From Berkelbacteria bacterium GW2011_GWE1_39_12 (GTDB lineage: Bacteria; Patescibacteriota; UBA1384; UBA12157): DNA of 64,000 nt. Below are positions 11,847 to 62,330 of the stretch, piece by piece (the stretch's first letter is position 1; the number at the start of each line of letters is the position of its first letter). The stretch covers positions 76,087 to 140,086 of the forward strand of contig CP011213.1 in assembly GCA_001029735.1 (NCBI GenBank), given 5' to 3'. Below the pieces are notes generated by a model. That model did not search any database. It was not told where the DNA came from and worked only from the letters and a program-made list of their open reading frames with translations. A program made the translations under genes and the position numbers.

Positions 11847-12470
11847 ATGTTGCTTTTTTCCCTATTTAATTCGCCAATAACATTCTTTTTTGTCGCCATC
11901 ACTATTTTGATTGGTTTTACGGTTCATGAATTTACACATGCTTTTGTTGCGGACAGTTTAGGCGACGATACCCCAAGAAGAATGGGACGGCTTACTTTAA
12001 ATCCGATTGCCCATTTGGACCTATTTGGCACTATTTTCCTTCTTTTAGCGGGGTTTGGCTGGGGAAAACCTGTCATGGTGAATCCACAAAACTTTGCTAA
12101 TCCTAAAATTGACAATTTGACCGTATCACTCGCCGGACCAGTCAGCAACTTGGCGCTAGCGACAATTTTTGGCTTAATTTATAGATTTGCCAATTTGCCC
12201 GATTTAGCGAATTCTTTTTTGATTATCTTTGTCTTCTATAACTTAGTTTTAATGATTTTTAACTTTCTTCCTATTCCCCCGCTTGACGGATCAAAGATAC
12301 TCAGTATTTTTTTACCTGAAGATATTTATAATTTTTTTGAGCAATATGGAACTTATATATTACTCGCCGTTATCTTGCTTTCGCCTATGATCCCGATTAT
12401 TCCTTTTATAATGAATAAAGTGGTTGGTTTTTTCTTTACTCTCATTACCGGACAGTCAGCCATTGTTTAA
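11847..12470 (+). CDS. Peptidase M50 (site-2 protease family) membrane metalloprotease.
   Basis: HEFTH (HExxH) in a TM helix. LDGS motif downstream. Polytopic. Confidence 0.7.
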   Translation: MLLFSLFNSPITFFFVAITILIGFTVHEFTHAFVADSLGDDTPRRMGRLTLNPIAHLDLFGTIFLLLAGFGWGKPVMVNPQNFANPKIDNLTVSLAGPVSNLALATIFGLIYRFANLPDLANSFLIIFVFYNLVLMIFNFLPIPPLDGSKILSIFLPEDIYNFFEQYGTYILLAVILLSPMIPIIPFIMNKVVGFFFTLITGQSAIV

Positions 12471-12659
12471 ATTACTTTTATTTTAAATTCTCCTCCTTTT
12501 TTGATATAATGAATGTGGCGCTACTTGTCGCCGATAATTGGCTTAACATTATATACAACGGGAATCTGCGTCTTCGGCTGCCTTGGTAGTCGAAGCAAGA
12601 CACCCAAATTGGTTTCTTAAAGACCAATTAAGGTTGGCAAGTAGAGCCATTTATAAATG

Positions 12660-12707
12660 TGCGGGGTGCGTGAGGCCAGCAGTTCGAATCTGATATCCCC
12701 GACCAAT
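12660..12707 (+). other. tRNA 3'-half-like minihelix (T-arm + acceptor + discriminator A + CCA) with no 5' half. Candidate att-site remnant or ncRNA 3' end.
   Basis: ...AGCAG-TTCGAAT-CTGAT-ATCCCCG-A-CCA with a complementary CGGGG 5' strand at 12662-12666. No D-arm or anticodon arm could be built. Confidence 0.35.
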
Positions 12708-12792
12708 TACAACTTAATATTCTACTACAAAACTCAAAGGCTTATCGATCTCAAAAAAAAGTGCCTTCTATGTCCTCTCTTATAATAACGTA

Positions 12793-12821
12793 TTGACAGG
12801 TTATTCTATTTCTGGTAGAAT
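12793..12821 (+). promoter_or_regulatory. Near-consensus sigma70 promoter for the NfeD-flotillin operon, flanked by ACGTATTGA / ACGTATCAA direct repeats (possible operator).
   Basis: TTGACA-N17-TAGAAT. The two 9-mer repeats bracket the -35 element and the +1 region. Confidence 0.55.
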
Positions 12822-12881
12822 CTCAACGTATCAATTTGGCCTAACAAGGCCCTACTTTAACAACTAAAGGAGGTGAACAAA

Positions 12882-13583
12882 ATGCATGCGGCAGAACTGT
12901 TAATCTGGTACAATCTACTGTTTGTTATTTCGATTGTCACTGCGTTTCTTATCTTGTTGATCACGGCCGTAACTGGCATTGGCCACGAGATGGGCGGCGC
13001 GGAGGCAGATTTAGATGCAGACGTAGGTATGGACGCAGATACAGATGCTGGCATCGATGCTGACGCCGATGCAGGAGCTGATCACAGCTTTTTGCACGAA
13101 ACCGGCGCTCATGATCATGACGGCAGTCTACTGAAGGCCTTGACCTTGTTTGGCGTCGGAAAGGTTCCAATCTCTGTGATTGTAACCTTAGTCCTCTTCC
13201 TTTTTGGAATGCTGGGACTTTCGTCTAACTTGGTTTTTGAAAAGATGGGATTGCCACCGGTTGCTTACTTCTGGTTTTCTTTGTCAGCGGCGGCAATACT
13301 GTCGTTGATTCTTACCGGTCGTCTGGCTAACTTAGTGGCAAGATTCATGCCTTCACTAGAGACCACTAAGATAACGCCTTACGACTTGGTTGGCAGGGCA
13401 GGGACGGCAGAATACACGATCAGCACCAATGGAGGACGAGTAATTGTCAGAGACAGTCATCTTAACCTTCATGTGGTAGACGCCAGAACAATCGAAGGCC
13501 AGATTCAATCAGGCGAAGAGATTGTGGTTGTCGAGTACGAAAAAGAAGAGTCTCGTTACGTTGTGTCAAAGCTTGACCTATAA
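12882..13583 (+). CDS. NfeD-like (YqiJ/YuaF family) membrane protein with an Asp/Ala-rich acidic repeat and a C-terminal OB-fold.
   Basis: AAGGAGG RBS 8 nt before the ATG at 12882. EADLDADVGMDADTDAGIDADADAGADHS low-complexity segment. TM helices, then a C-terminal ~70-aa beta-rich NfeD-type domain. It sits directly upstream of a flotillin gene, the canonical arrangement. Confidence 0.65.
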   Translation: MHAAELLIWYNLLFVISIVTAFLILLITAVTGIGHEMGGAEADLDADVGMDADTDAGIDADADAGADHSFLHETGAHDHDGSLLKALTLFGVGKVPISVIVTLVLFLFGMLGLSSNLVFEKMGLPPVAYFWFSLSAAAILSLILTGRLANLVARFMPSLETTKITPYDLVGRAGTAEYTISTNGGRVIVRDSHLNLHVVDARTIEGQIQSGEEIVVVEYEKEESRYVVSKLDL

Positions 13584-13633
13584 CCTAGGCAAGGCAGTAC
13601 CGAAAGAAAAAACAAAAAACAGGAGGAACGTAC

Positions 13634-15535
13634 GTGGGAATCGGAGTAGTGATGCTATTAATTGGCATGGTCATGATTTTCGGACCATGGTTTGCGCCCG
13701 TAGAAGTACCGACAGGCGCTCGTCTGGTGTTTTCAGTCCTCGGCGGAATCTTATTCGCCGTCGGCAGCTTGGTGGTCATTATTACCAAGCTGTATGTCAA
13801 AGCGTCGGCAGAAAAAGCCTATGTGAGAACCGGTATGGGCAAAGCTAAAGTCATCATGGACGGCGGCTCGCTCGTTATTCCGGTTGTACATACACTGATC
13901 TGGGTGCCGCTTCGTACCTTCAAACTTGAAGTCATGCGCCAAGCGAATGATGCGCTGATTACTGGCGATAAGCTGCGAGCTGACATCAAGGCTGAATTCT
14001 ATATAAAGGTTCAGGCTAATGATGAAGATATCACGCAAGCAGCCCGATCATTAGGCGAAAGATCTGTCGACGAGCATAATCTTACCGGTATGATGATGGA
14101 AAAGCTGGTTTCTGCCATCCGGTCAGTTGCGGCAAAGTCAACTCTTGAGGAACTCAATAGTGACAAAGCGACTTTCGCTCAGAGCGTCGCTACTGCAGTT
14201 TCTTCAGACCTCAAACACAACGGTTTCACACTGGAGACAGTAACAATTTCCAGTCTGGACCAAACGCCGATCAACTTCCTCAAAGAAGATAACGTCTTCG
14301 ATGCGGAAGGACGCAAGCGAATCGCCGACATCACTAGTCAGGCTAAAGTCGCTGAAAACCAGTTCAGACGTACTGCCGAACAGCAAATTGCTGAGCAGGA
14401 CACTTTAACTCGTACAAAAGTGGCTGAGCAAGAGTATCTGCAGAATAAGGCCGACGCCGAACGCGACGCCAATATCAAGAAGACACAGGCCGAGCAACTT
14501 CGGGAGGCCGAGGTATACTCTGCCCAGCAGACGCAGCAGACGAAAGAAGCACAGATTCTTGCTGAGCAGAACGTCGGTCTGAAGGAAGCTGAAAAGGTTC
14601 GCGAGGTTCAGTTGGCGCAAATCGGCGCCGACCAAGCAGCCAAAACTGCCAGCGTCGAGCTGGAGAAAACGGTCGAAGTGGCCAATCGCAGGAAGCAGAT
14701 TGCTATTGCCGCGGCCGAAAAAGAGCGAGCGGACGCTGAAGCGCTGAAGTTGACAGCAGAGCAAGCGCGAGAGAAAGAGAACCAAGGCGTCATTACTGTT
14801 CAAGAAGTAGCAACTGCTGAACGCGATAAGCAAGTCAAGGTTATCGCGGCAATGCAGGACGCCGAGGTTCAGAAAACAGACCGGAATATGCAGGCAGACA
14901 TTGCCGCATACCAGGTCGAAAAGCAAGCCGACGCAGAGCGGAACGCTGCGACTAAGAATGCAGAAGCCATCAGAGTCGAAGCTGAAGCTCGCAAAGATGC
15001 GAAAGTCATGGAAGCCACTGGAGAACAAGCAGTCATGATGGTTCCCGTCAACGTCTCTGCAGAGCAAGTAGCAGTTGACGCGAAGCGTCAGAACGAGGTC
15101 GAAAAGGCCCGCGTTGACGTTTTGCAGCAGGAATTGTCCGCTAAGAGTGAGCACGAGAAGGTCTCCATCGAACTGGAAACAACTCTGGCCACGCTCCGCG
15201 TCCTTGAAGCTATTGGCGTCGAAGGAGCCAAAGCATATGGAGCGAGCATGTCTTCGGCTCACATCCAGGTTTTCGGCGATACCGAAACCTTGGGTAAGAT
15301 CAACAAGAGTTTCTATGGCGGTCTTGGTGCCATGAAACTTCTCGAGGGTGTAATCGCCGGTGACGGCGAGTCTCCGGTCGGCCAGATCGGCGACATGCTT
15401 GGTGGACTGATTAGGAGAGTCAAAGCAGGTGACACTGCTGGACTTATCGAGAAAGTTCAGGAGCTTGCTGCTGAAAACCCCGAATTGGTCCAGGCGCTCA
15501 TCTCTAAAGAGAGTGCCGAGCCCAAGATTGAGTAA
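13634..15535 (+). CDS. Flotillin-like SPFH/Band-7 protein (YqiK/FloT-like) with a long EA/KQ-rich coiled coil.
   Basis: N-terminal TM, SPFH core (VIMDGGSLVIPVVHTLIWVPLRTFKLEVMRQANDALITGDKL...), then about 350 aa of Glu/Ala/Gln/Lys-rich coiled coil. About 50% GC. Confidence 0.75.
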   Translation: MGIGVVMLLIGMVMIFGPWFAPVEVPTGARLVFSVLGGILFAVGSLVVIITKLYVKASAEKAYVRTGMGKAKVIMDGGSLVIPVVHTLIWVPLRTFKLEVMRQANDALITGDKLRADIKAEFYIKVQANDEDITQAARSLGERSVDEHNLTGMMMEKLVSAIRSVAAKSTLEELNSDKATFAQSVATAVSSDLKHNGFTLETVTISSLDQTPINFLKEDNVFDAEGRKRIADITSQAKVAENQFRRTAEQQIAEQDTLTRTKVAEQEYLQNKADAERDANIKKTQAEQLREAEVYSAQQTQQTKEAQILAEQNVGLKEAEKVREVQLAQIGADQAAKTASVELEKTVEVANRRKQIAIAAAEKERADAEALKLTAEQAREKENQGVITVQEVATAERDKQVKVIAAMQDAEVQKTDRNMQADIAAYQVEKQADAERNAATKNAEAIRVEAEARKDAKVMEATGEQAVMMVPVNVSAEQVAVDAKRQNEVEKARVDVLQQELSAKSEHEKVSIELETTLATLRVLEAIGVEGAKAYGASMSSAHIQVFGDTETLGKINKSFYGGLGAMKLLEGVIAGDGESPVGQIGDMLGGLIRRVKAGDTAGLIEKVQELAAENPELVQALISKESAEPKIE

Positions 15536-15569
15536 CTAACTGCTCGACGTAAGTTGAGCAACGACAAAA

Positions 15570-15603
15570 CGGCGTACTATATAATATGTGTACGCCTTTT
15601 TAA
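15570..15603 (+). terminator. Rho-independent terminator after the flotillin gene.
   Basis: GGCGTAC-N12-GTACGCC + TTTTT. Confidence 0.65.
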
Positions 15604-15850
15604 TACCTAAAAAACCAGGCTCCTTTCCGAGCTGGATAATAACAATATAAATTATAATTGATCAAAAATTAAAAATATCACTCACTTTTCAGACAACTTT
15701 TTTCAGATGATCGAAAATAAAGTTCCTCCGCTCTGGAAGTTTAGAGCAATTTTTGATACATTAAATTAAGAAGAATTTATTGAACATTTTATTCAAAAAA
15801 AAGTTCACACTTCGTTCAGTAAGTTCGAAAAGGATTTAGGATGTTTAATA

Positions 15851-18046
15851 ATGGATTATGAAATTCAATACGCCAGACTTGTAACGACGGAAAAGCTGCC
15901 CGACCGGTTTTTGAATACTCAACTCAAAGCCAATGCCAACCTTGCAAAAACTCAGATGGGCGAAATTTTTTCGATGACGGAAATTTTAACTCAATGGTTT
16001 ACTACGGCACAAATTGGCCAAACTATAATAAATACATTTGCAAACTCATATTATCAAGGTGGAAGTACTTCCGATCTAATCAATTTTGAAGATTCGCTTA
16101 AAAAAGTAAATGAAACTCTAGCGCAAATTACGCAAAATGGTGAAACTGACTGGATCGGCAATATTAATGCCATCTTAGGCGTTATTGTTGAAAATAAAAT
16201 GCATATTGCCCAAACCGGACGTGCCAACGCTTACGTGTTTCGCGATGGCAAGATGGAAAATCTAACAGAAGATTTAGCCCAAGGTGGCGAACCACATCCC
16301 TTAAAAACCTTTACTAATATCACTTCGGGCGAGCTAAAAAGTAAAGACAAAATCTTGATCGCTAATCCTGAGCTTTACAACCAAATTGATGCTGAAAACC
16401 TGCGCCAGATTATTACTATGAACAATCCAAACGAAGCCGTCATGTATTTAGCGAAGATTTTGAAGAAAAAAAGAGTAAATACTGTAAACGCATTATTGAT
16501 TCAATTATTAACCACTGAGGAACTAGCAAAGCAACCGGTCAGCATTGATAATAGTACTATATATTTAGACAAACCATTGGAATCGGTCTGGGCAGGAGCG
16601 CAAAGGGCCTGGCAAGGAATGATTTTTCCAATTATCAAGGCTTTTTCTAAAGAAACCAAAAAAGCATCAGACAAGTCACTGGAATTTACTAAAAATTATT
16701 TAAAAACTCTTCATGAAAAAAAACAGACTAATCAAATAGTTCAAAAAAAAGATTTGTTTGAAAAAGAATTTATTGAAAACAAACCTGAGGATAATCTTCT
16801 AAAAGATGAAGAGATTAAGTACTCACCGGAACTAGAGGTTCATTATTATCAAGAACAACAAAAAGAAAAAGATAATCGTCTAAATAGCTACTCCGCCAAT
16901 GCATCAAAATATTTGAGCGCTTTTGTTTCTTTTGTCATTAAAACAGGCCAAGACAAAAAGCTTAGACCGTATTTTTTAATTGTTGTCGCTCTTGTGATTT
17001 TAACTACAATCGGTTTCACTATTAAAAATAGATATAGCGGTTCTAAGGTTGATCTAAATGAAGCTCAACAAACTTTAAGATCAGCAGAAGATTCTTCGTC
17101 CCAGGCAAAAACCGCATCGGCGAATAAAGATAATGAAAAAGCAAAGCAACTTTGCGCCACTGCAATTACGCAAGCCAGTCCGATTACAAACGTAGCGGTC
17201 GTCGGCGGTAATGCACAAAAAGTTGTGAGCGATTGTTATGGTTTAATTGATACTCTTAGCGCAACGACAAGACTTTCTGATATTAGTCCGATACTATCTA
17301 TAGACCAATCTATTTCCGGATCATTTGTTGTCGGAAGCAAGGCTTACTTAATTTCCGATGGCGATATTTATAGCGCTTTAATTTCGGGCGGAAAACCGGT
17401 TAAAGTTTCTTCAATCCCGAAGAATAACGGCGACTTTCAATTTGGCGCTGTTTACGGAACCGATATTTTAATTTATACGTCTAGTCAAAAAGTTTATAAT
17501 TTTGACACAACAAATTCCAAGACTACGCTTTCTGCCCCTTCTAGTGGTAATTGGGAATCGACCAATGCCGGTACTGTATACAACGGCAACTTCTACCTGC
17601 TTGATAGTGTAATCGGTCAGATTTATAAGCACGCTTTTGTTTCAAGCGTGGCACAATCCGGCACCGCCTACTTAACCACAAAGAGTGTCGATATAAAAGG
17701 CAGTAAATCAATTGCCATAGATGGTTCGGTTTACGTTTTACAAGATAACGGCGACGTACTGATGTTGCAAAGAGGAAAAGCAGTAGACTTTTCACTAAAA
17801 GATACGCCAAGTCCTTATTCAAGAATTGAAAAACCAGTTAAGATTTACACTGACAGTGATGCATCTTCTTTGTATATTTTGGATAACGGGCAAAAAAGAA
17901 TTTTAGAATATGATAAAAACGGAAACTATATTCACCAATATGCATTGCCAAATACACTCGGCGATTTAACTGATTTCTCAGTCTCAGTTAAAGCCAAAAA
18001 AATTTGGGTATCAGCCGGTAAAAGTCTGTACGAGATCGGTATATAA
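15851..18046 (+). CDS. Membrane protein with an N-terminal PP2C-like (probably catalytically degenerate) domain, one TM helix and a large C-terminal extracytoplasmic domain.
   Basis: GNINAILGVIVENKMHIAQTGRANAYVFRDGKMENLTEDLAQGGEPHPLKTFTNITSG aligns with the PP2C block GTT..AAL..G..L.VAHVGDSRAYL.RDG.L.QLT.DHS...HP.RN.ITRALG. The metal-binding residues are substituted: GDS to GRA and DHS to DLA. TM helix at around residue 370 (FLIVVALVILTTIGFTI). Confidence 0.55.
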   Translation: MDYEIQYARLVTTEKLPDRFLNTQLKANANLAKTQMGEIFSMTEILTQWFTTAQIGQTIINTFANSYYQGGSTSDLINFEDSLKKVNETLAQITQNGETDWIGNINAILGVIVENKMHIAQTGRANAYVFRDGKMENLTEDLAQGGEPHPLKTFTNITSGELKSKDKILIANPELYNQIDAENLRQIITMNNPNEAVMYLAKILKKKRVNTVNALLIQLLTTEELAKQPVSIDNSTIYLDKPLESVWAGAQRAWQGMIFPIIKAFSKETKKASDKSLEFTKNYLKTLHEKKQTNQIVQKKDLFEKEFIENKPEDNLLKDEEIKYSPELEVHYYQEQQKEKDNRLNSYSANASKYLSAFVSFVIKTGQDKKLRPYFLIVVALVILTTIGFTIKNRYSGSKVDLNEAQQTLRSAEDSSSQAKTASANKDNEKAKQLCATAITQASPITNVAVVGGNAQKVVSDCYGLIDTLSATTRLSDISPILSIDQSISGSFVVGSKAYLISDGDIYSALISGGKPVKVSSIPKNNGDFQFGAVYGTDILIYTSSQKVYNFDTTNSKTTLSAPSSGNWESTNAGTVYNGNFYLLDSVIGQIYKHAFVSSVAQSGTAYLTTKSVDIKGSKSIAIDGSVYVLQDNGDVLMLQRGKAVDFSLKDTPSPYSRIEKPVKIYTDSDASSLYILDNGQKRILEYDKNGNYIHQYALPNTLGDLTDFSVSVKAKKIWVSAGKSLYEIGI

Positions 18047-58999: not shown

Positions 59000-59123
59000 A
59001 AACTTTATGTTGGCGCCTACCTACTTTCCCGGAACCTTTCGGATCAAGTATCATCGGTACTATGGTGCTTAACTACTCTGTTCGGAATGGGAAGAGGTGT
59101 ACCCACCACGTTAAAGCACCAAC
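59000..59123 (-). rRNA. rrf: 5S ribosomal RNA.
   Basis: The reverse complement reads TGTTGGTGCTTTAACGTGGTGGGTACACCTCTTCCCATTCCGAACAGAGTAGTTAAGCACCATAGTACCGATGATACTTGATCCGAAAGGTTCCGGGAAAGTAGGTAGGCGCCAACA, with helix I pairing and the CCGAAC loop C motif. Confidence 0.85.
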
Positions 59124-59184
59124 ATAAAATTTTTAAAAGCCAACTCTACTCTGCTCTCCGGCATAGCCGGAGTAAGCAAGCTTC

Positions 59185-59236
59185 CCGGAATGGGAAGAGG
59201 TGTACCCACCACGTTAAGACACCAACACTCAAGCCA
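59185..59236 (-). pseudogene. Truncated 5S rRNA 5'-half pseudo-copy in the 23S-5S spacer.
   Basis: GTGTTGGTGTCTTAACGTGGTGGGTACACCTCTTCCCATTCCGGGAAG is about 94% identical to the first 48 nt of the 5S, then diverges. Confidence 0.6.
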
Positions 59237-59355
59237 CAATGGCTTCTTAAAATTCTTCTAACGTATGTTTTTTGATTTGATTTTTAACTGTTTAGTGACC
59301 TTGGTAGTTGTCCAACCGTCCTCTTAGACGCGTAACAAGTTACGCATAAAAGAGG

Positions 59356-62330
<2,975 letters not shown>

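What the first reader, a model, noticed from the sequence alone, without database searches (positions are those of the whole stretch)
12493..12707. tRNA 3'-half-like minihelix (T-arm-acceptor-A-CCA) with no 5' half, at the upstream edge of the GC-rich NfeD-flotillin patch
Positions 12660-12707 form a near-canonical tRNA 3' domain: a T-stem with a TTCGAAT loop, a 7-nt acceptor 3' strand, discriminator A and CCA, with a complementary CGGGG immediately 5'. No D-arm or anticodon arm can be built, and the upstream 170 nt contains several hairpins but no GGGG tmRNA-like 5' end.

Partial tRNA 3' ends are what integrases leave as attL/attR at island boundaries. Here the fragment sits exactly where the composition switches to about 50% GC for the next 2.7 kb.

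Alternatively, 12493-12707 could be an unrecognised structured ncRNA.
Basis: partly seen in the sequence, partly recalled or inferred. Interest (0 to 1): 0.55.

Follow-up and report, generated by a model that had tools for sequence, protein, structure and literature searches.

The report
Compact 6S RNA plus broken tRNA-Pro
The flagged stretch holds a compact 6S RNA gene (a regulator of RNA polymerase) that the standard RNA database misses, followed by a proline tRNA gene that has lost its middle by a small deletion; it is not a scar left by a mobile element.

Summary
In detail: 12662-12705 is a tRNA T-arm, acceptor 3' strand, A and CCA with no D-arm or anticodon arm. In eight related Patescibacteria loci a complete tRNA-Pro(GGG) sits at this exact position. 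The window sequence equals that gene with about 32 nt removed between two GGGG runs (acceptor positions 2-5 and anticodon 34-37), plus two substitutions, one of which breaks a T-stem pair. It is therefore an internally deleted tRNA pseudogene in its original place. It is not an integrase attL/attR half: there is no second copy, no intact tRNA and no integrase.

The "hairpins" upstream (12516-12649) are a separate gene with a conserved extended -10 promoter. The RNA has strong covariation (29 of 44 pairs) and the canonical 6S architecture. Models built from it hit orthologues that Rfam scores as 6S (L138: 56.7 bits, gathering score 46.4), and a model built only from distant orthologues finds the window RNA at E about 2e-14. 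Rfam itself misses the window copy.

The NfeD-flotillin patch is a genuine insertion of foreign composition, in a variable slot downstream of the tRNA. I found nothing linking it to the truncation. The source is Berkelbacteria GW2011_GWE1_39_12. Overall this is a new member of known kinds, of modest interest.

The parts
12482..12510 (+). Promoter of the 6S RNA gene: -35 TTTAAA (12482-12487), TG (12502-12503), -10 TATAAT (12505-12510). The predicted start is G12517/G12518.
   Evidence: The promoter scan gives 10/12 matches with a TG extension. TGnTAyAAT is conserved at the same distance from the RNA in 12 of the 13 distinct orthologous loci printed; L138 has no clear match.
12516..12649 (+). 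6S RNA (ssrS) gene, about 133 nt, a compact divergent member of the family.
   Evidence: Covariance-model hits span 12515-12651 (151 bits; 139 bits). Model R3, built only from L077, L138 and L046, gives 85.4 bits, E 1.9e-14, as the only hit in the window. Orthologue L138 scores 56.7 bits against Rfam RF00013, above the gathering score of 46.4. L046 scores 25.6 bits.
12516..12532 (+). 6S closing stem, 5' strand. It pairs with 12632-12649 and carries a conserved purine.A mismatch (G12520.A12645) and a bulged T12635.
   Evidence: RNAalifold. 13 of the 16 pairs of this helix show changes on both sides, and 97.6% of cells are paired.
12533..12559 (+). 5' central bulge (27 nt). It contains the conserved single-stranded AUUGGCUU-AACA (12538-12548), which I infer to be the template and start region for product RNA.
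   Evidence: Unpaired in the consensus structure, apart from a weak 2-bp helix (26-27 with 36-37, 87.5% paired). AACA, or GACA in L138, is conserved in all orthologues. The position matches the bulge of the Rfam 6S consensus. The template role is inference.
12560..12605 (+). Apical stem-loop, opening with GGGA (12560-12563), closing with ACCC (12602-12605; A12606 follows), with internal loops and terminal loop CUUG (12582-12585).
   Evidence: 13 of 17 pairs (helices 3 and 4) show changes on both sides. GGGag...caCCCAC is also the Rfam 6S consensus on either side of the bulge.
12607..12629 (+). Hairpin on the 3' side, opposite the 5' central bulge.
   Evidence: helix 5, 90.7% paired. A hairpin opposite the 5' bulge is part of the canonical 6S description (PMC8414754) and of the Rfam consensus CCUgg...CaGG.
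12650..12661 (+). Spacer between the 6S gene and the tRNA remnant (TTTATAAATGTG).
   Evidence: Similar in length and sequence to the 10-12-nt spacers of L083, L088, L169 and L170.
12662..12705 (+). tRNA-Pro(GGG) pseudogene with an internal deletion. It keeps C1-G5, joined to T38, then the anticodon-stem 3' strand, variable loop, T-arm (12678-12694), acceptor 3' strand (12695-12701), A73 and CCA.
   Evidence: Intact tRNA-Pro(GGG) sits at this position in L083, L084, L085, L088, L090, L138, L169 and L170. The L083 gene is CGGGG[ATTGGCGCAGTCCGGTAGCGCGCGCGCATGGGG]TGCGTGAGGTCAGCAGTTCGAATCTGCTATCCCCGA, with the lost 32 nt in brackets. The window has two substitutions, T47C and C64A. The sequence is identical in three assemblies.
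12706..15745 (+). Inserted cassette, about 3 kb with approximate edges. It holds its own promoter (12793-12821), NfeD/YqiJ-like gene (12882-13583), flotillin/YqiK-like gene (13634-15535) and a terminator-like hairpin GGCGTAC...GTACGCC-TTTTT (15571-15601).
   Evidence: Absent in L084, L085, L090 and L170, where the 735-aa gene follows the tRNA after 30-60 nt. GC3 is 0.49-0.55 against 0.32-0.36 in neighbouring genes. The promoter scores 11/12. Pfam families are YqiJ_N and Band_7. The right limit comes from the shared TTTTTGATAC promoter at 15748-15759. The terminator was read by eye.
11847..12470 (+). Site-2 (M50) protease gene, the conserved upstream neighbour used as the synteny anchor.
   Evidence: AKM81916.1, Berkelbacteria bacterium GW2011_GWE1_39_12.
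15851..18046 (+). 731-aa gene, the native downstream neighbour of the tRNA in relatives.

Best explanation
The interval holds two adjacent RNA genes of a Berkelbacteria (Patescibacteria/CPR) chromosome, not one element.

(1) From an extended -10 promoter (12482-12510) a 6S RNA of about 133 nt is transcribed (12516/17-12649). It has a closing stem, a 27-nt 5' central bulge, an apical stem-loop and a 3' hairpin. By analogy with characterised 6S RNAs it would mimic an open promoter, sequester the housekeeping RNA polymerase holoenzyme, and be released when the polymerase copies the 5' bulge into a short product RNA. This function is inferred, not shown.

(2) In relatives a tRNA-Pro(GGG) gene follows 10-12 nt later on the same strand with no terminator between. 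The two genes are therefore probably co-transcribed, with RNase P cleavage at the tRNA 5' end separating them (inferred).

In this genome the tRNA gene has lost about 32 nt. The missing part is the rest of the acceptor 5' strand, the D-arm, the anticodon-stem 5' strand and most of the loop. The loss is a deletion between two GGGG runs, leaving C1-G5 fused to position 38 onward. The product cannot form a cloverleaf and is a pseudogene. A T-stem pair has since been broken by a substitution.

The NfeD-flotillin operon is a horizontally acquired cassette. It sits in a slot downstream of the tRNA that carries different cargo in different relatives. Nothing ties its arrival mechanistically to the tRNA truncation.
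For: 6S RNA:
- The structure has 29 of 44 pairs with compensatory changes and 94.8% of cells paired, against 31-44% when partners are slid.
- G.U pairs outnumber A.C by 31 to 9, and together with the promoter and the terminators in L077 and L046 this fixes the + strand.
- Models R1 and R2, built from the window clade, hit L138 2143-2288 and L046 2100-2233. These are the same intervals that Rfam scores as 6S, at 56.7 bits (above the gathering score of 46.4) and 25.6 bits.
- Reciprocal model R3 finds only window 12515-12651, at E 1.9e-14.
- The architecture matches the canonical description in PMC8414754 and the Rfam consensus motifs GGGag / caCCCAC plus hairpin.
- Synteny of M50, RNA and tRNA-Pro(GGG) is shared with L138.
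- Truncated 6S-1 RNAs with short arms still complete the 6S cycle in vitro (abstract of PMC8876501), so the small size is compatible with function.

tRNA:
- Eight distinct relatives have an intact tRNA-Pro(GGG) at this position.
- The window sequence equals the L083-type gene minus one 32-nt block flanked by GGGG, with two substitutions.
- The remnant starts at the spacer distance expected for the tRNA 5' end.
- In the intact type-B relatives (L083, L084, L169, L090) the T-stem is fully paired, with a compensatory pair change in L084 (CAG/CTG to GAG/CTC), whereas the window has G50.A64.
- The sequence is identical in three independent assemblies.

Insert:
- Absent in relatives, with elevated GC and GC3.
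- The nearest flotillin homologue, at 56% identity, lies on a 66% GC contig next to an NfeD-like gene and close to an SLH-domain protein.
- The slot holds other cargo in L083 and L169.
Against: - Rfam's 6S model gives no hit on the window RNA even at E<=10. The assignment therefore rests on a homology chain whose weakest links are modest (R2 to L138 is 30.5 bits), with roughly calibrated E-values.
- The alignments used for covariation were fitted to the model.
- At about 133 nt the RNA is shorter than the Rfam consensus of 187 positions.
- No expression, polymerase-binding or product-RNA data exist.
- The deletion endpoints are ambiguous within the GGGG repeat. If the ancestor resembled L083, which has an extra tRNA 5' fragment, the deletion would be about 110 nt.
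- The remnant differs from L083 at only 2 of 41 positions. The deletion is therefore either recent or the remnant is still under some constraint.
- I could not check whether another tRNA-Pro(GGG) exists elsewhere in the 915-kb genome.
Confidence: 0.8

Rival explanations
1. The tRNA 3' half is an attL/attR remnant left by a tRNA-targeting integrase, and it marks the boundary of the NfeD-flotillin island.
For: The remnant's identity to the tRNA could be read as starting at the anticodon loop and it runs through CCA, a common extent for att identity blocks (from my own knowledge of tRNA integration sites). A cassette of foreign composition lies 170 nt downstream and is absent in relatives. The locus shows other tRNA scraps in relatives: a 16-nt 3'-end copy in L090 and a 5' fragment in L083.
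Against: There is no second copy of the tRNA segment in the window or at the far edge of the insert. There is no intact tRNA-Pro in the window. For a + strand tRNA the island-proximal copy on this side should be the complete gene. The cassette has no integrase or other mobility gene. The remnant starts at the native tRNA 5' position after the native spacer, and one internal deletion explains the sequence fully.
Confidence: 0.06
2. The truncated tRNA is retained because it still works as a minihelix (5-bp acceptor stem, T-arm and ACCA). It would direct RNase P, RNase Z or the CCA-adding enzyme to define or stabilise the 3' end of the upstream 6S RNA, much as MALAT1 uses mascRNA.
For: C1-G5 pairs with C68-G72, and the T-loop TTCGAAT and the encoded ACCA are intact. 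Only 2 of 41 positions differ from a relative whose M50 protein is only 78% identical. In relatives the tRNA immediately follows 6S with no terminator, so 6S 3' maturation probably depends on it. No terminator is found after 6S in the window. Bacterial RNase P cleaves acceptor/T-arm minihelices (from my own knowledge).
Against: The T-stem carries a disruptive G.A mismatch that intact orthologues avoid. An 11-nt/2-nt internal loop separates the acceptor and T stems. The fold is no more stable than shuffles. tRNA genes evolve slowly, so high identity does not prove constraint. The truncated form is seen only in this one lineage.
Confidence: 0.1
3. The whole of 12493-12707 is one novel structured RNA, tmRNA-like or a tRNA-like fusion RNA.
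For: The two parts are probably co-transcribed, and no database family covers either part of the window.
Against: ARAGORN finds no tmRNA, standard or permuted. In L077 and L046 the upstream RNA ends in its own terminator with no tRNA-like tail. In eight relatives the downstream part is an ordinary complete tRNA. The spacer between the two parts varies from 10 to about 80 nt.
Confidence: 0.02
4. The truncation is an assembly artefact.
For: Short repeats such as GGGG can in principle confuse assemblers.
Against: The 410-nt region is identical in the window and in two contigs from other samples and assemblers (L001 from ENA, L002 from Logan). A 4-nt repeat is far below assembler k-mer sizes.
Confidence: 0.02

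Closest known systems
6S RNA / SsrS (Rfam RF00013)
   Same: It has a closing stem, a large 5' central bulge, an apical stem-loop and a hairpin opposite the bulge. The GGGA...ACCCA motifs flank the bulge as in the Rfam consensus. Orthologues score as 6S in Rfam. It is an independent gene with a housekeeping-type promoter.
   Different: It is much shorter (about 133 nt against a 187-position consensus), with a closing stem of only about 16 bp. The window clade scores below any Rfam reporting threshold. It lies directly upstream of a tRNA-Pro(GGG) gene rather than next to the neighbours described for other phyla. Function is untested.
tRNA-Pro(GGG) genes of related Patescibacteria (e.g. L083 3963-4036, L169 1611-1685)
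   Same: It occupies the same chromosomal position, and positions 1-5 and 38-76 have the same sequence apart from two substitutions.
   Different: It lacks positions 6-37 (part of the acceptor strand, the D-arm, the anticodon-stem 5' strand and most of the loop). It cannot form a cloverleaf and is not called by ARAGORN or Rfam.
tRNA-gene att sites of integrase-mobilised genomic islands
   Same: A partial tRNA 3' segment lies near a block of foreign composition that is absent in relatives.
   Different: There is no duplicated segment, no intact tRNA partner and no integrase. The fragment is on the wrong side for the partial copy, and it is explained by an in-place internal deletion.
E. coli yqiJ-yqiK type NfeD-flotillin (SPFH) operons
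   Same: The gene pair and order match, with Pfam YqiJ_N followed by Band_7, and the best homologues are named YqiK or flotillin.
   Different: This is only the neighbouring cargo, not part of the RNA feature. Here it was acquired horizontally into a CPR genome.

Membership tests
6S RNA (RF00013) | Outer closing stem formed by the 5' and 3' ends | tested here: met
   12516-12532 pairs with 12632-12649. 13 of 16 pairs have changes on both sides and 97.6% of cells are paired.
6S RNA (RF00013) | Large single-stranded 5' central bulge (the site where product RNA starts) | tested here: met
   27 nt (12533-12559) are unpaired in the consensus and carry a conserved AACA. Use as a template was not tested.
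6S RNA (RF00013) | Apical stem with internal loops, capped by a terminal loop | tested here: met
   12560-12605. 13 of 17 pairs covary. The GGGA/ACCCA motifs match the Rfam consensus.
6S RNA (RF00013) | Hairpin on the 3' side opposite the central bulge | tested here: met
   12607-12629. The feature is described in PMC8414754.
6S RNA (RF00013) | Score at or above the Rfam gathering threshold (46.4 bits) | tested here: not met
   The window gives no hit even at E<=10. Orthologue L138 scores 56.7 bits and L046 scores 25.6 bits.
6S RNA (RF00013) | Homology to a member that passes the threshold | tested here: met
   R2 hits L138 at 30.5 bits. R3, built from L077, L138 and L046, hits the window at 85.4 bits, E 1.9e-14. 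M50 / RNA / tRNA-Pro synteny is shared.
6S RNA (RF00013) | Binds the housekeeping RNA polymerase holoenzyme and templates product RNA | not testable with these tools
   This needs biochemistry or transcriptomics.
Functional tRNA (RF00005) | Complete cloverleaf with D-arm and anticodon arm | tested here: not met
   ARAGORN and Rfam give no call. 32 nt are missing relative to orthologues.
Functional tRNA (RF00005) | Descent from a tRNA gene (orthologous position and sequence) | tested here: met
Integrase-generated tRNA att site / genomic island | Direct repeat of the tRNA 3' segment at both island ends, one copy completing an intact tRNA | tested here: not met
   There is a single copy in the window, no matching repeat at 15536-15850 and no intact tRNA-Pro.
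Integrase-generated tRNA att site / genomic island | Integrase or recombinase gene in the island | tested here: not met
   Only YqiJ_N and Band_7 genes lie between 12706 and 15850.
Integrase-generated tRNA att site / genomic island | Insert absent from relatives and of deviating composition | tested here: met
tmRNA (RF00023), one-piece or permuted | tRNA-like domain plus a tag reading frame, detected by ARAGORN or Rfam | tested here: not met

The most novel reading that the evidence does not exclude
In this CPR lineage 6S RNA and tRNA-Pro(GGG) form a conserved dicistronic unit in which the tRNA serves as the 3'-end processing signal for 6S. In this genome the gutted tRNA would persist as a CCA-bearing minihelix because it still performs that processing or stabilising role for 6S RNA. 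That would be a bacterial counterpart of the MALAT1-mascRNA arrangement.
Probability: 0.1. Interest if true: 0.55.

Novelty: new member of a known kind. Interest (0 to 1): 0.3.

Why it matters
- It shows that Rfam-based annotation misses the 6S RNA of a whole Berkelbacteria-related clade, and the comparative analysis here supplies an alignment and structure that recover it. At about 133 nt this is a very compact 6S, useful for asking how little RNA is needed to mimic an open promoter.
- It documents a conserved adjacency of 6S and tRNA-Pro(GGG) in Patescibacteria, which suggests tRNA-dependent 3' maturation of 6S.
- It shows a reduced genome losing a tRNA-Pro(GGG) gene copy by a microhomology deletion. 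This bears on how small a tRNA set CPR bacteria can live with.
- It corrects a tempting misreading: a tRNA fragment next to foreign DNA is not necessarily an att site.

Tried and rejected
- **tmRNA, one-piece or permuted.** Rejected: ARAGORN and Rfam are negative, and relatives show an ordinary tRNA.
- **SRP RNA, Y RNA, RNase P RNA, riboswitch or T-box for the upstream RNA.** I considered these from the sequence. Rejected because Rfam gives no hit, the topology is a bulged two-arm RNA rather than an SRP hairpin, and L077 and L046 end in their own terminators with no regulated gene downstream.
- **Scan of genome contigs with an M50 alignment.** A few of its Patescibacteria loci (L046, L077) still proved useful.
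- **Scan of metagenome contigs with the single protein.** It gave six closer loci.
- **Second tRNA-Pro fragment or flanking repeats around the insert.** I found only a 12-nt A-rich repeat (12751 and 15793). It is probably chance, because the native promoter motif at 15748-15759 lies to its left.
- **Flotillin homologue search.** It did not identify a donor. The best named hits are Armatimonadota, Thermomicrobiales and one Komeilibacteria, at 42-45% identity.
- **Literature searches** for 6S RNA in CPR/Patescibacteria and for 6S-tRNA operons found nothing relevant in the held library.
- **Searching papers for the genome name.** Uninformative.

Full report
**1. What is in the sequence**

Window 12662-12705 reads CGGGG-TGCGTG-AGGCC-AGCAG-TTCGAAT-CTGAT-ATCCCCG-A-CCA. 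That is a T-arm with a canonical T-loop, a 7-nt acceptor 3' strand, discriminator A and CCA, preceded by CGGGG, which can pair with CCCCG. ARAGORN finds four tRNAs elsewhere in the window but nothing here, and no tmRNA. Rfam finds nothing at 12350-12950 at the gathering score or at E<=10. The small corrections are that the T-stem has one G.A mismatch and that the isolated minihelix folds no better than shuffled sequence (z = +0.88).

**2. Source and relatives**

The upstream gene (11847-12470) encodes an M50 site-2 protease whose exact sequence is AKM81916.1 of Berkelbacteria bacterium GW2011_GWE1_39_12, with a longest contig of 915,059 bases. The same protein occurs on contigs from other samples. 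Over 12471-12880 those contigs (L001, L002) are identical to the window, so nothing here is an assembly artefact.

I fetched loci from relatives with 56-78% M50 identity, plus a few more distant Patescibacteria. A scan of genome contigs with a too-general pattern was largely wasted.

**3. The tRNA fragment**

A complete tRNA-Pro(GGG) lies on the same strand just after a conserved RNA that follows the M50 gene. This holds in L083, L084, L085, L088, L090, L138, L169 and L170. In L088, L169 and L170 the spacer between the two RNA genes is 10-12 nt, and in the window the remnant starts after 12 nt.

The L083 gene is CGGGG ATTGGCGCAGTCCGGTAGCGCGCGCGCAT GGGG TGCGTGAGGTCAGCAGTTCGAATCTGCTATCCCCGA. Removing the 32 nt between the GGGG of the acceptor stem (positions 2-5) and the GGGG that contains the anticodon (34-37) gives the window sequence exactly, apart from T47C and C64A. 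C64A destroys the G50-C64 pair. L084 changes a T-stem pair on both sides and keeps it paired.

The simplest reading is one microhomology-flanked internal deletion in an in-place gene, followed by a little decay. If the ancestor had the L083 arrangement, with an extra 5' fragment upstream, the deletion would be about 110 nt, with the same junction. Whether the genome keeps another tRNA-Pro(GGG) cannot be tested here. From my own knowledge of Salmonella, only the UGG isoacceptor is essential there, so loss of the GGG species would be tolerable.

**4. Why it is not an att site**

- An integrase event duplicates the tRNA 3' segment and leaves a complete tRNA at one end. The window has one copy only (0.00 expected by chance), no repeat at the far side of the insert and no intact tRNA-Pro.
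- The cassette encodes only a YqiJ_N (NfeD-like) protein and a Band_7 (flotillin) protein.
- For a + strand tRNA the copy on this side of an island should be the complete one.

The insertion itself is genuine. In L084, L085, L090 and L170 the 735-aa gene (window 15851-18046) follows the tRNA after 30-60 nt. GC3 is 0.49-0.55 in the two cassette genes against 0.32-0.36 in their neighbours (profile). The nearest flotillin homologue, at 56% identity, lies on a 66% GC contig next to an NfeD-like gene and close to an SLH-domain protein. The AT-rich flanks of the cassette carry its own promoter (12793-12821) and a terminator-like hairpin (15571-15601, read by eye). A promoter motif shared with L170 and L088 at 15748-15759 puts the right edge of the insert left of about 15745. 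It also makes the 12-nt A-rich repeat at 12751/15793 a probable coincidence.

The slot downstream of the tRNA is variable in relatives: an unrelated minus-strand ORF in L083, and Cyt-b5 plus another gene in L169. Stray tRNA scraps also occur at this locus in L083, L085 and L090. The neighbourhood is recombinationally active, but I see no evidence linking the insertion to the deletion.

**5. The upstream RNA**

Between the M50 stop codon and the tRNA lies a conserved block with a conserved TGnTAyAAT extended -10 element (window 12502-12510).

- *Structure.* RNAalifold on three sequences gave a closing stem, a long unpaired 5' segment, a long apical hairpin and a second hairpin. On eight sequences aligned to the model, 94.8% of cells pair, against 31-44% with partners slid. 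29 of 44 pairs show changes on both sides, and 0 of 500 shuffles reach any of the measures. The alignment was fitted to the model, which inflates these numbers somewhat, but the slid control keeps relatedness.
- *Strand.* G.U pairs outnumber A.C by 31 to 9, minus-strand scores are about 100 bits lower, and L077 and L046 have intrinsic terminators directly after the RNA. All of this fixes the + strand and shows that the RNA is a gene in its own right.

**6. Identity of the RNA**

Models built from the window clade hit two distant Patescibacteria loci just downstream of their M50 genes: L138 2143-2288 and L046 2100-2233. Independently, Rfam scores these same intervals as 6S RNA. L138 reaches 56.7 bits, above the gathering score of 46.4 (E 5e-9), and L046 reaches 25.6 bits. 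A model built only from L077, L138 and L046 recovers window 12515-12651 at 85.4 bits, E 1.9e-14, as the only hit in 64 kb.

The Rfam consensus shows GGGag opening the apical stem, and caCCCAC followed by a CCUgg...CaGG hairpin on the 3' side. The window has GGGA at 12560, ACACCCA at 12600-12606 and a hairpin at 12607-12629. The published canonical description lists a closing stem, a large 5' central bulge that holds the product-RNA start, an apical stem with a terminal loop, and a hairpin opposite the bulge (PMC8414754). It fits point for point.

The RNA is short, about 133 nt. Truncated B. subtilis 6S-1 RNAs with short arms still run the full cycle in vitro (abstract of PMC8876501). I therefore assign it to 6S RNA as a divergent member that Rfam does not detect. 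Its function (sequestering the polymerase, then release through product-RNA synthesis from the conserved AUUGGCUU-AACA bulge) is inferred from the family, not shown.

**7. How the two parts relate**

In relatives no terminator separates 6S from the tRNA, so a 6S-tRNA-Pro precursor cut by RNase P is likely (inference). In the window no terminator follows either. The 6S 3' end and possible read-through toward the NfeD operon are therefore open questions.

The most novel reading that I cannot exclude is that the gutted tRNA survives as a CCA-bearing minihelix that still serves 6S maturation. It differs from L083 at only 2 of 41 positions. Against this, the T-stem mismatch, the large internal loop and its occurrence in a single lineage make simple recent decay more likely. 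I put the functional reading at about 0.1.

**8. Verdict**

The att-site interpretation is not supported. The alternative of an unrecognised ncRNA is right for the upstream part, which is 6S RNA. Both elements are new members of known kinds. Interest is modest (0.3) and comes mainly from three things: a compact 6S clade missed by Rfam, its conserved linkage to tRNA-Pro(GGG) in Patescibacteria, and a clean example of tRNA gene loss by microhomology deletion in a reduced genome. I found no paper on 6S RNA in CPR bacteria or on 6S-tRNA operons in the held library. That is an absence in this library only.

Noticed in passing
L083:3893-3962: Between its 6S gene and its complete tRNA-Pro, L083 carries a 5' fragment (positions 1-25) of a different tRNA-Pro(GGG) sequence type, the one found intact in L088 and L170. 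A 14-nt GC-rich hairpin (ACTCCGCCCGGAGG) is inserted in the D-loop of this fragment.
   Followed up: partly
L085:3808-3871: Another piece resembling a tRNA 5' half (GGGTATGGCTCAGCGG...), with an insertion, lies between 6S and the intact tRNA-Pro. It does not match that tRNA.
   Followed up: no
L090:2421-2436: A 16-nt copy of the 3' end of an L084-type tRNA-Pro (CTCCTATCCCCAACCA) lies 9 nt after L090's own tRNA-Pro CCA. This is the kind of scrap a past recombination or integration event would leave.
   Followed up: no
L083, L084, L085, L088, L090, L169, L170 (tRNA-Pro genes): Two distinct sequence types of tRNA-Pro(GGG) occupy the same locus among close relatives. Their distribution does not follow M50 protein identity, which suggests gene replacement at this site.
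   Followed up: partly
window 12706-15850; L083:4040-4850; L169:1690-3325: The slot just downstream of tRNA-Pro holds different cargo in different relatives: NfeD-flotillin in the window, an unrelated minus-strand ORF in L083, Cyt-b5 plus a 328-aa gene in L169, and nothing in the others. No mobility gene is present in any case.
   Followed up: partly
L171 (contig of the nearest flotillin homologue, P0122): The closest homologue of the window flotillin (56% identity) lies on a 66% GC contig next to an NfeD-like gene, with an SLH-domain protein two genes downstream. This suggests a donor outside the CPR with high GC content.
   Followed up: partly
window 12873-12884: The NfeD/YqiJ-like gene probably starts at ATG 12882 (RBS AGGAGG at 12868-12873; 233 aa, as called in L001), not at the GTG at 12873 given by the mechanical ORF list.
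   Followed up: partly
window 15748-15759; L170:2052-2064; L088:2460-2472: The motif TTTTTGATAC(T/A), like an extended -10 element, is conserved upstream of the 731/735-aa gene. It resembles the 6S promoter at 12498-12510.
   Followed up: partly
L077:1890-2147: In a Saccharibacteria relative the 6S homologue lies upstream of the M50 gene, ends in its own terminator, and converges on a tRNA-Pro(GGG) on the opposite strand. 6S and tRNA-Pro(GGG) are therefore adjacent even where co-transcription is impossible.
   Followed up: no
window 59008-62326: 23S and 5S rRNA genes lie on the minus strand. The 23S scores 2372 bits over the full model, with no obvious large insertion.
   Followed up: no
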